A stretch of 64,000 nt of DNA from the NCBI RefSeq assembly GCF_041886205.1, contig NZ_CP169029.1; one strand, given 5' to 3'. Below, in pieces: positions 61,406-62,003 of the stretch. Each line of letters opens with the position of its first letter. The first letter of the stretch is position 1. This DNA comes from Escherichia coli. Its GTDB lineage: Bacteria; Pseudomonadota; Gammaproteobacteria; Enterobacterales; Enterobacteriaceae. The position numbers and the translations under genes are program-made. Below the pieces are notes generated by a model. It saw only the letters and a program-made list of their open reading frames with translations, was not told the origin of the DNA and did not search any database.

Positions 61406-61758
61406 TTATTCCACCACCGCCTGCAAGCGTAATAACGCCTCTTCCACCACCTCATCCGCAGCCAGACCAATACGCTTTGCCAGCCGGGCGCGTAGATCCA
61501 TCATCCGCACCTGATTAACCAGCACCACGCCGTGCACATCGCCTTCTTCGCAATGTAAAGGAACGCTAAATCCGGCATAACGGGCAAAATTTCCACACCC
61601 TGCGTAATGGGGGCCACCAGCGTCATTCCCAGTTGATTAAAGGCTTGAACGGAGAGCACAAGCGCAGGTCGACCAGCACCTTGCTGTTCATGGCCGCTTG
61701 CTGGATCAAAGCCAACCAGCACAATGTCTCCCCGTTCAAATTCACTTTTCTTTACCAT
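61406..61758 (-). pseudogene. chpB: ChpB (ChpBK) MazF-family toxin with an apparent +2 frameshift (extra AC near 61592-61593)
   Basis: ORF reads MVKKSEFERGDIVLVGFDPASGHEQQGAGRPALVLSVQAFNQLGMTLVAPITQG then shifts; expected continuation ...MMDLRARLAKRIGLAADEVVEEALLRLQAVVE is present in another frame ending at 61406. Confidence 0.8.
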
Positions 61759-62003
61759 ATTTCGTCACCCGCAGGGGTGGATTTACCCCAGACATCCTGC
61801 TCGCTAAGTTCCGCGGCGTTCATGTCACACTGTGCCAGCAGTTCATCAAGCGAGTAGCGCCTGGAGATGGGTGTCAGAATCAGTTGGTTGTTGCTCACCT
61901 GCGCTTCCACGCTCTGCCCCGGCTGTAAGTTAAGTTCTTTCATTACGATATTGGGAATGACCATACCTGCACTGTTCCCCCATCTTTTTATGGTAATACG
62001 CAT
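61752..62003 (-). CDS. chpS: ChpS (ChpBI) antitoxin, AbrB/MazE-type
   Basis: MRITIKRWGNSAGMVIPNIVMKELNLQPGQSVEAQV...; overlaps the chpB start by a few bases. Confidence 0.85.
   Translation of the reverse strand: MRITIKRWGNSAGMVIPNIVMKELNLQPGQSVEAQVSNNQLILTPISRRYSLDELLAQCDMNAAELSEQDVWGKSTPAGDEIW

What the first reader, a model, noticed from the sequence alone, without database searches (positions are those of the whole stretch)
61406..62003. chpBS toxin-antitoxin locus with a frameshifted toxin and an intact antitoxin
ChpS (antitoxin) is intact, but the ChpB MazF-like toxin frame breaks after ...LVAPITQG, where ttccacaccctgcgt seems to carry two extra bases; the C-terminal toxin sequence continues out of frame. 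Loss of toxin with antitoxin retained is a recognised decay path for TA modules. This is the second indel lesion within about 600 bp of the ppa frameshift, so the two may share a cause, whether technical or biological.
Basis: partly seen in the sequence, partly recalled or inferred. Interest (0 to 1): 0.4.

Follow-up and report, generated by a model that had tools for sequence, protein, structure and literature searches.

The report
Frameshifted chpB: probably a sequence artefact
The well-known E. coli chpBS toxin-antitoxin locus does carry two extra bases that break the toxin gene, but this is one of three tiny, evenly spaced duplications found in no other genome, one of which breaks an essential gene, so it is most likely a sequence error and not toxin decay.

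Summary
The window holds the E. coli chpS-chpB operon between ppa and ytfP. chpS is intact. chpB carries a 2-nt tandem duplication (CA to CACA, window 61594-61597) after codon 54 (...LVAPITQG). This gives an 85-aa product that keeps only 47 of the 109 PemK/MazF profile positions.

The "toxin decay" reading is not supported. Against its nearest relatives, the window differs over 2.1 kb by zero substitutions and exactly three insertions:
- +G in ppa (60999)
- +CA in chpB (61594-5)
- +CG in the loop of the ytfP terminator (62193-4)

Each insertion duplicates the adjacent 1-2 nt, and they lie 595 and 599 bp apart. None occurs in any of 3097-5424 complete E. coli genomes. The truncated proteins are not on record in a 153-billion-gene index. 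The rest of the 64-kb window shows no other frame-breaking indel, and 21.6 kb of it is 100% identical to a public draft genome. ppa is essential in E. coli, so at least that lesion cannot be real in a viable single-copy gene.

The three lesions most likely share a non-biological cause, such as a consensus or stitching error or later editing of the sequence. Reads are needed to prove this. The locus itself is ordinary and the interest is low.

The parts
61752..62003 (-). chpS (chpBI) antitoxin gene, intact, 83 aa. Its last codons overlap the chpB start (ATGGTAA).
   Evidence: ORF. The DNA is identical to the annotated chpS of NZ_AP045833.1. Pfam PF04014 MazE_antitoxin, E=1.3e-11.
61597..61758 (-). 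chpB (chpBK) toxin, N-terminal 54 codons in the original frame, ending ...LVAPITQG.
   Evidence: tblastn splits the reference ChpB into residues 1-56 and 57-118 of the stop-to-stop ORF, in two frames. PemK_toxin profile positions 1-47 of 109.
61594..61597 (-). The lesion: CACA where every relative has CA. On the coding strand GGT GGA becomes GGT GTG GA. It is a 2-nt tandem duplication that shifts the frame.
   Evidence: alignment. Absent from all 3097 complete E. coli genomes that match this 81-nt stretch, where the best identity is 97.5% = 79/81. Absent from 12 further loci.
61501..61596 (-). Out-of-frame tail (31 codons, VEILPVMPDLAFLYIAKKAMCTAWCWLIRCG) and the stop codon of the 85-aa product.
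61406..61593 (-). Displaced wild-type C-terminal coding sequence of chpB (residues 55-116 of the normal protein), now in a different frame. It contains a 43-aa GTG ORF at 61406-61537.
   Evidence: The 43-aa ORF matches PemK_toxin profile positions 71-108. tblastn.
60798..61329 (+). ppa (inorganic pyrophosphatase), broken by a 1-nt duplication (G to GG at 60999-61000) at the LDGDPVD motif. The N-terminal product is 70 aa.
   Evidence: Absent from all 5424 complete genomes that match. Pfam shows only profile positions 1-51 of 153 retained. ppa is essential: PMC9959109, citing Chen et al. 1990.
62178..62212 (-). Intrinsic terminator hairpin after ytfP, with a 2-nt duplication in its loop (CG to CGCG at 62193-62196; on the RNA strand UUCG becomes UUCGCG).
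   Evidence: Absent from 5163 complete genomes, where the best identity is 96.7% = 58/60. Predicted stability is unchanged, -19.6 against -19.3 kcal/mol.
61417..62052 (.). Approximate extent of the chpBS module as a presence/absence block. It is missing as a unit in some close relatives.
   Evidence: L016, L017 and L021 carry an identical TamA and align to the window up to about 61416 and again from about 62053. 3097-3099 of 5426 complete genomes carry the module.

Best explanation
The locus is the ordinary chromosomal chpS-chpB (chpBI-chpBK) type II toxin-antitoxin operon of E. coli. The 2-nt duplication that breaks chpB is most likely not a property of the living strain. It is one of three lesions of a single non-biological event or process that affected about 1.2 kb of this record. 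Each lesion repeats the 1-2 bases next to it, and the lesions are about 597 nt apart. That is what off-by-one or off-by-two joins between consecutive ~600-nt pieces would produce (consensus windows, reads, or sequence chunks), or deliberate or accidental editing of the sequence. With the two bases removed, chpB encodes the normal 116-aa ChpB endoribonuclease, neutralised by ChpS. What is shown: the lesions, their privacy, their clustering, and the essentiality of ppa. What is inferred: the technical origin and the junction mechanism.
For: (1) Over window 60500-62600 the nearest relatives (L001, L015, L018) differ by 0 substitutions and exactly three insertions. Over 39500-64000 there are only 3 SNPs besides these.
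(2) All three insertions are absent from every complete RefSeq E. coli genome that matches each site: 0/3097 for chpB, 0/5424 for ppa and 0/5163 for the terminator. They are also absent from 12 other public loci, including divergent and chpBS-less ones.
(3) The truncated products (ChpB 85 aa, ChpB 73 aa from the alternative start, Ppa 70 aa) are not on record in an index of 153 billion gene positions.
[quoted passage not shown] 1990).
(5) The rest of the window is clean. There are 0 gaps against ET201 over 1-17977. Window 23521-45116 is 100.000% identical over 21,596 bp to GCA_012715495.1. No other reference ORF of at least 100 aa is frame-split.
(6) The statistics give clustering P about 0.001, even spacing P about 0.011 conditional on the span, and all-tandem-duplication P about 0.011.
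(7) The spectrum is insertions only. There are no substitutions and no deletions, unlike mutagenesis or long-term pseudogene decay.
Against: No reads or quality values are available, so a technical origin is inferred and not shown. The error signature (2-nt duplications of non-repeated dinucleotides) does not match the usual homopolymer errors of any sequencing platform I know, and I cannot name the exact software step. Frameshifted chpB alleles do occur sporadically in other public assemblies (P0001-P0005, P0008), so a real chpB frameshift is not implausible in itself. Losing a chromosomal toxin costs the cell nothing. The source assembly was not identified, so I could not check whether a public version of the same strain lacks the lesions.
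Confidence: 0.75

Rival explanations
1. chpB is genuinely pseudogenised. A real 2-nt slippage duplication inactivated the ChpB toxin in this strain and left ChpS as an orphan, autoregulated antitoxin. The ppa and terminator insertions have a different (technical) origin or are coincidental.
For: Toxin inactivation is selectively free or even favoured. Other frameshifted chpB alleles exist in public data at other positions. The truncated product keeps only 47 of 109 PemK profile positions, so it would be non-toxic. chpS and the upstream region are untouched.
Against: The lesion has the same type, size class and spacing as two neighbours, one of them in an essential gene. Separating their causes is special pleading. 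It is private: 0 of 3097 genomes. No substitutions have accumulated in the dead toxin or anywhere in 12.6 kb, so it would have to be extremely recent. In close relatives, natural variation at this site is absence of the whole module.
Confidence: 0.13
2. All three lesions are real, but they sit in a redundant second copy of the ppa-chpBS-ytfP region (a duplication or plasmid-borne copy), or the strain has another pyrophosphatase. Loss of ppa would then be tolerated and the copy is decaying.
For: A few complete genomes have two copies of this stretch or carry it on a record labelled plasmid: highest 2 places per genome and 3 plasmid places. A heterologous PPase can replace ppa.
Against: The window is colinear with the standard chromosomal context for at least 24 kb on one side (mgtA ... 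ytfQ-ppa-chpBS-ytfP-tamB), which is the primary locus. Second copies are very rare, at most about 4 of 5424 genomes. Decay would also produce substitutions and deletions, and none is seen. Even spacing is not expected.
Confidence: 0.05
3. Recoding: the frameshift is bypassed by programmed -1 ribosomal frameshifting or transcriptional slippage, so that full-length ChpB is still made.
For: A -1 shift would restore the frame, and an A3T4 run (GAAATTTTG) lies just 3' of the lesion.
Against: In the mutant zero frame the codons are GAA ATT TTG, so the AAATTTT heptamer is not in X XXY YYZ phase. The run is too short for transcriptional slippage. The insertion is absent from all relatives, so no conserved recoding signal exists. 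ppa would need the opposite (+1) shift.
Confidence: 0.01

Closest known systems
E. coli chpBS (chpBI-chpBK) type II toxin-antitoxin system, between ppa and ytfP
   Same: Same genomic position, the same operon layout with the antitoxin first and overlapping the toxin start, and DNA identical to annotated chpS/chpB of complete genomes apart from two bases. ChpBK is a MazF/PemK-type, ribosome-independent endoribonuclease that cuts at ACY (PMC7781912).
   Different: The window's chpB has a private 2-nt duplication after codon 54. As written it encodes 54 native residues plus 31 out-of-frame residues.
Kid/PemK toxin of plasmids R1/R100 (PDB 1M1F, 2C06) and MazF (1UB4)
   Same: Kid is the closest solved relative of the repaired ChpB, at E=1.7e-21 and aligned over almost the full length. 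Both share the PemK_toxin Pfam family.
   Different: The chromosomal homologue is a weaker toxin: about 40% residual protein synthesis is reported. The truncated window product lacks the part that aligns to Kid residues from about 49 to 108.
Degenerate TA modules with an orphan antitoxin (toxin pseudogenised, antitoxin retained)
   Same: On its face the sequence has that arrangement. Sporadic frameshifted chpB alleles in public assemblies may be true examples.
   Different: Here the lesion is private, shows no other signs of decay, and is linked in type and spacing to a lesion in an essential gene. This points away from biology.
Assembly, consensus or junction indel artefacts in genome records
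   Same: Private small indels that break otherwise perfectly conserved genes, including an essential one, and that are confined to one short stretch of an otherwise exact sequence.
   Different: The lesions are not homopolymer-length errors. They are 1-2-nt tandem duplications at regular intervals of about 597 nt, and I could not match that pattern to a specific platform or program.

Membership tests
chpBS / MazEF-PemIK type II toxin-antitoxin module | Two small co-oriented genes, with the antitoxin upstream and overlapping or abutting the toxin | tested here: met
   chpS is at 61752-62003 and the chpB start is at 61758, both on the - strand, with a 7-nt overlap.
chpBS / MazEF-PemIK type II toxin-antitoxin module | Antitoxin with a MazE/AbrB-type (SpoVT-AbrB) DNA-binding domain | tested here: met
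   PF04014 MazE_antitoxin, E=1.3e-11, profile positions 1-46 of 48.
chpBS / MazEF-PemIK type II toxin-antitoxin module | Toxin that encodes a complete PemK/MazF fold in one reading frame | tested here: not met
   The 85-aa product matches PF02452 profile positions 1-47 of 109 only. Positions 71-108 lie in another frame. The reference allele without the two bases matches positions 1-108.
chpBS / MazEF-PemIK type II toxin-antitoxin module | Conserved chromosomal position between ppa and ytfP, as in annotated E. coli genomes | tested here: met
   The gene order ytfQ-ppa-chpB-chpS-ytfP-tamB is identical to NZ_AP045833.1 and others.
chpBS / MazEF-PemIK type II toxin-antitoxin module | Sequence-specific RNase activity (ACY) neutralised by the cognate antitoxin | not testable with these tools
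   Known only from the literature for the intact protein (PMC7781912).
Genuine toxin pseudogene / orphan antitoxin | The lesion can be reproduced in independent sequences of the strain or lineage | tested here: not met
   0 of 3097 complete genomes. 0 of 12 extra loci, including ones with zero substitutions. The truncated proteins are not on record. The source strain's own reads were not available.
Genuine toxin pseudogene / orphan antitoxin | The lesion is independent of anomalies in neighbouring, selectively constrained genes | tested here: not met
   The same kind of lesion occurs 595 bp away in the essential gene ppa and 599 bp away in a terminator loop.
Sequence or assembly artefact | Private, frame-breaking indels in otherwise identical sequence, including in an essential gene | tested here: met
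Sequence or assembly artefact | Contradicted by raw reads, or associated with low coverage or quality | not testable with these tools
   No reads, quality values or assembly metadata are available for the window.

The most novel reading that the evidence does not exclude
The three GGTG-adjacent 1-2-nt templated duplications, spaced about 597 bp apart, are genuine in vivo lesions left by one processive biological event, for example a repair or nicking tract that acts at regular intervals. The strain would survive ppa loss through another pyrophosphatase or a second copy. chpS would then be a true, very recent orphan antitoxin, possibly acting as an anti-addiction gene against Kid/PemK plasmids. 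The cross-neutralisation idea rests on my own recollection and was not tested.
Probability: 0.04. Interest if true: 0.55.

Novelty: not a real feature. Interest (0 to 1): 0.08.

Why it matters
If the frameshift were real, it would be one more example of a chromosomal toxin-antitoxin pair decaying to an orphan antitoxin. That is a known and minor phenomenon. The practical value of this check is quality control. The 1.2-kb stretch 60999-62196 of this record should not be used to infer pseudogenes, because the ppa "frameshift" and the chpB "frameshift" are very probably the same artefact. Regularly spaced tandem 1-2-nt duplications are a signature worth screening for elsewhere in the source assembly.

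Tried and rejected
1. Looking for the same allele elsewhere. Five megablast searches of 5,426 complete E. coli genomes, using 60-82-nt and 661-nt probes, found none of the three insertions.

2. Exact-protein look-ups of the truncated ChpB (85 aa, and 73 aa from the alternative start) and the truncated Ppa (70 aa). None is on record.

3. Exact 30-mer scans for the mutant chpB allele in genome contigs and metagenome contigs gave 0 hits. My wild-type controls then showed that these collections have almost no power here: the wild-type 28-mer gave 0 hits in genome contigs and only 2 metagenome contigs. I give these two negatives no weight.

4. General error-prone assembly. Rejected, because the other ~62 kb of the window has no frame-breaking indels and 21.6 kb is 100% identical to a public draft.

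5. Methylation-motif or homopolymer basecalling error. Rejected, because the sites are not homopolymers. The GGTG/CACC tetramer next to all three sites occurs 672 times in the window without lesions.

6. Quasi-palindrome templated mutation at the terminator. Rejected, because the insertion does not improve hairpin complementarity and the predicted stability is unchanged.

7. Programmed frameshifting or transcriptional slippage. Rejected on codon phase and run length.

8. Identifying the source assembly. A distinctive YjgL allele led to GCA_012715495.1, which is 100% identical over 21.6 kb, but by my coordinate arithmetic from the ranges that contig ends near window position 49,890. I therefore could not view the chpB region of that lineage. 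Look-ups through TamB and TamA returned only relatives with intact chpB and ppa, or with no chpBS at all.

Full report
**What is there.**
The 3' end of the window is standard E. coli chromosome: ytfQ (59532-60488, -), ppa (60798-61329, +), chpB (61406-61758, -), chpS (61752-62003, -), ytfP (62217-62558, -) and tamB (from 62561, -). chpS encodes the normal 83-aa antitoxin. Its DNA is identical to annotated chpS, with a Pfam MazE_antitoxin hit at E=1.3e-11.

chpB translates as MVKK...MTLVAPITQG and then leaves the ChpB sequence (VEILPVMPDL...), stopping after 85 residues. Alignment to the nearest complete genome (NZ_AP045833.1, strain wlxctx60) shows the cause. The window reads TTTCCACACCCTG where the reference reads TTTCCACCCTG, so two extra bases sit at 61594-61595 and CA becomes CACA.

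**Consequence for the protein, as the sequence is written.**
- The 85-aa product retains PemK_toxin profile positions 1-47 of 109.
- The remaining ChpB sequence (profile positions 71-108) lies in another frame, in a 43-aa ORF.
- The reference allele covers profile positions 1-108.
- The closest solved relative of intact ChpB is Kid/PemK (1M1F, E=1.7e-21), aligned over nearly the full length.

Losing more than half of the fold should abolish the ACY-specific endoribonuclease activity described for ChpBK (PMC7781912). That loss of activity is an inference.

**The lesion is not alone.**
Over window 39500-64000 the window differs from wlxctx60 by 3 SNPs (at 40255, 50323 and 51381) and three insertions, and by nothing else.

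| Site (window) | Insertion | Feature hit | Change |
|---|---|---|---|
| 60999 | +G | ppa | GGTGAC to GGTGGAC |
| 61594-5 | +CA | chpB | CA to CACA |
| 62193-4 | +CG | loop of the terminator hairpin after ytfP | CGAA to CGCGAA; UUCG to UUCGCG on the RNA strand |

Three relatives (L001, L015, L018) have zero substitutions over 60500-62600 and differ at exactly these three sites. Nine further loci also lack every insertion at each site they cover. These include a metagenome contig at 98.7% identity and three chpBS-less strains.

The three insertions share several properties:
- Each is a tandem duplication of the adjacent 1 or 2 nt.
- They lie 595 and 599 bp apart.
- No deletions and no substitutions accompany them.

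**They are private to this window.**
Probes centred on each site were searched against 5,426 complete E. coli genomes.

| Site | Genomes matched | Best identity |
|---|---|---|
| chpB | 3097 | 79/81 |
| ppa | 5424 | 80/81 |
| terminator | 5163 | 58/60 |

The best identity always corresponds to the wild type without the insertion. The 661-nt chpBS probe gave 659/661 as its best result. The exact truncated proteins are not on record in an index of 153 billion gene positions.

Two whole-collection scans for the mutant 30-mer found nothing. My wild-type controls then found 0 and 2 contigs, so those scans carry no weight.

A homology search did find a handful of other frameshifted chpB alleles in public assemblies (P0001-P0005, P0008). 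Each has a different break point and each is rare.

**The rest of the window is clean.**
- Window 1-17977 aligns to strain ET201 without a single gap.
- Window 23521-45116 is 100.000% identical over 21,596 bp to a contig of GCA_012715495.1.
- A tblastn of every stop-to-stop ORF of at least 100 aa from three reference loci found frame splits only at the three lesion sites.

A generally error-prone assembly is therefore not the explanation. Something happened locally.

**Why I think it is not biology.**
1. ppa is essential in E. coli. It cannot be deleted unless another pyrophosphatase is supplied (PMC9959109, citing Chen et al. 1990). The +G falls in the LDGDPVD stretch and leaves 51 of 153 Pfam profile positions. 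That this stretch holds catalytic aspartates is from my own knowledge. The gene sits in its normal chromosomal context, colinear with complete genomes for at least 24 kb.
2. The three lesions are clearly one phenomenon. They share the same class (short tandem duplications) and the spacing is even. Simulation gives P about 0.001 for such clustering in 64 kb, about 0.011 for such even spacing given the span, and about 0.011 for all three random insertions being tandem duplications. These tests were chosen after seeing the data.
3. Zero substitutions in 12.6 kb, with three insertions in 1.2 kb, fits neither mutagenesis nor pseudogene ageing.
4. Where close relatives lack ChpB, they lack the whole module: window ~61417-62052 is missing in L016, L017 and L021. 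Overall, 57% of complete genomes carry chpBS.

**Most likely mechanism (inferred).**
A duplication of the last 1-2 bases at regular intervals of about 597 nt is what imperfect end-to-end joining of consecutive ~600-nt pieces would give. Counted in reference coordinates, the pieces would be 596 and 599 nt long with 1-2-nt overlaps. Such pieces could be consensus or polishing windows, patched reads, or chunks handled by software. Editing of the sequence after assembly is the alternative. I cannot name the step, and the signature does not match the usual homopolymer or methylation-motif errors. The GGTG/CACC tetramer next to all three sites occurs 672 times in the window without lesions, so I record that adjacency as unexplained and post hoc.

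**Rivals.**
- A genuine chpB pseudogene with an unrelated ppa error (about 0.13). This is possible because toxin loss is free and other frameshifted alleles exist, but it requires splitting an evidently single pattern.
- A decaying redundant copy, or a strain with another PPase (about 0.05). Duplicated or plasmid-labelled copies of this stretch are very rare, and the context here is the primary chromosomal one.
- Recoding (about 0.01). It fails on codon phase, and ppa would need the opposite shift.

**Comparison with what is known, and verdict.**
The locus is a member of the chpBS (chpBI-chpBK) MazEF/PemIK-type type II TA family by position, operon layout and antitoxin domain. As written, it fails the requirement of a complete toxin reading frame. 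With the two bases removed it is identical to the common allele.

Nothing here is new biology. The frameshift is really in the sequence given, but it is most probably not a real feature of the organism. Interest is low. The useful outcome is a warning that 60999-62196 of this record carries three linked indel artefacts, and that the ppa and chpB "frameshifts" should be treated as a single event.

Noticed in passing
window 62193-62196 (hairpin 62178-62212, - strand): A third private 2-nt tandem duplication (CG to CGCG) in the loop of the intrinsic terminator after ytfP, 599 bp from the chpB lesion. Predicted hairpin stability is unchanged (-19.6 against -19.3 kcal/mol).
   Followed up: yes
window 60999-61000: The ppa frameshift is a 1-nt duplication (G to GG) in the LDGDPVD stretch of an essential gene. 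It is absent from 5424 complete genomes. It is the key argument that the whole cluster is artefactual.
   Followed up: yes
window 60999, 61594, 62193: All three insertions abut a GGTG/CACC tetramer (on one strand or the other) and are spaced 595 and 599 bp apart. The motif adjacency is a post hoc observation (0.09 per random site within 6 nt) and remains unexplained.
   Followed up: partly
window ~61417-62052; loci L016, L017, L021: chpBS behaves as a presence/absence block. Relatives with an identical TamA lack the whole module between ppa and ytfP, and about 57% of complete E. coli genomes carry it.
   Followed up: partly
proteins P0001-P0005, P0008 (public assemblies): Several other rare frameshifted or truncated chpB alleles exist in public data, each broken at a different position. 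Most share the same out-of-frame tail (...DLAFLYIAKKAMCTAWCW). Whether they are real or are errors was not examined.
   Followed up: no
window 17978-18745 and 19282-19366: An IS1 copy sits next to tRNA-Leu(CAA), where strain ET201 carries a ~10-kb island (AbiE-like genes and a type I restriction-modification system). The island is absent from the window.
   Followed up: no
window 33521-35116 (- strand): A divergent yjgL allele (531 aa, about 74% identical to the versions in ET201 and wlxctx60). The exact protein is present on 18 public contigs, including GCA_012715495.1.
   Followed up: partly
whole window: The window is a recombination mosaic relative to sequenced genomes. Window 1-17977 is about 99.6% identical to ET201, 23521-45116 is 100% identical to GCA_012715495.1, and 39500-64000 is 3 SNPs from wlxctx60. 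No complete RefSeq genome matches throughout.
   Followed up: partly
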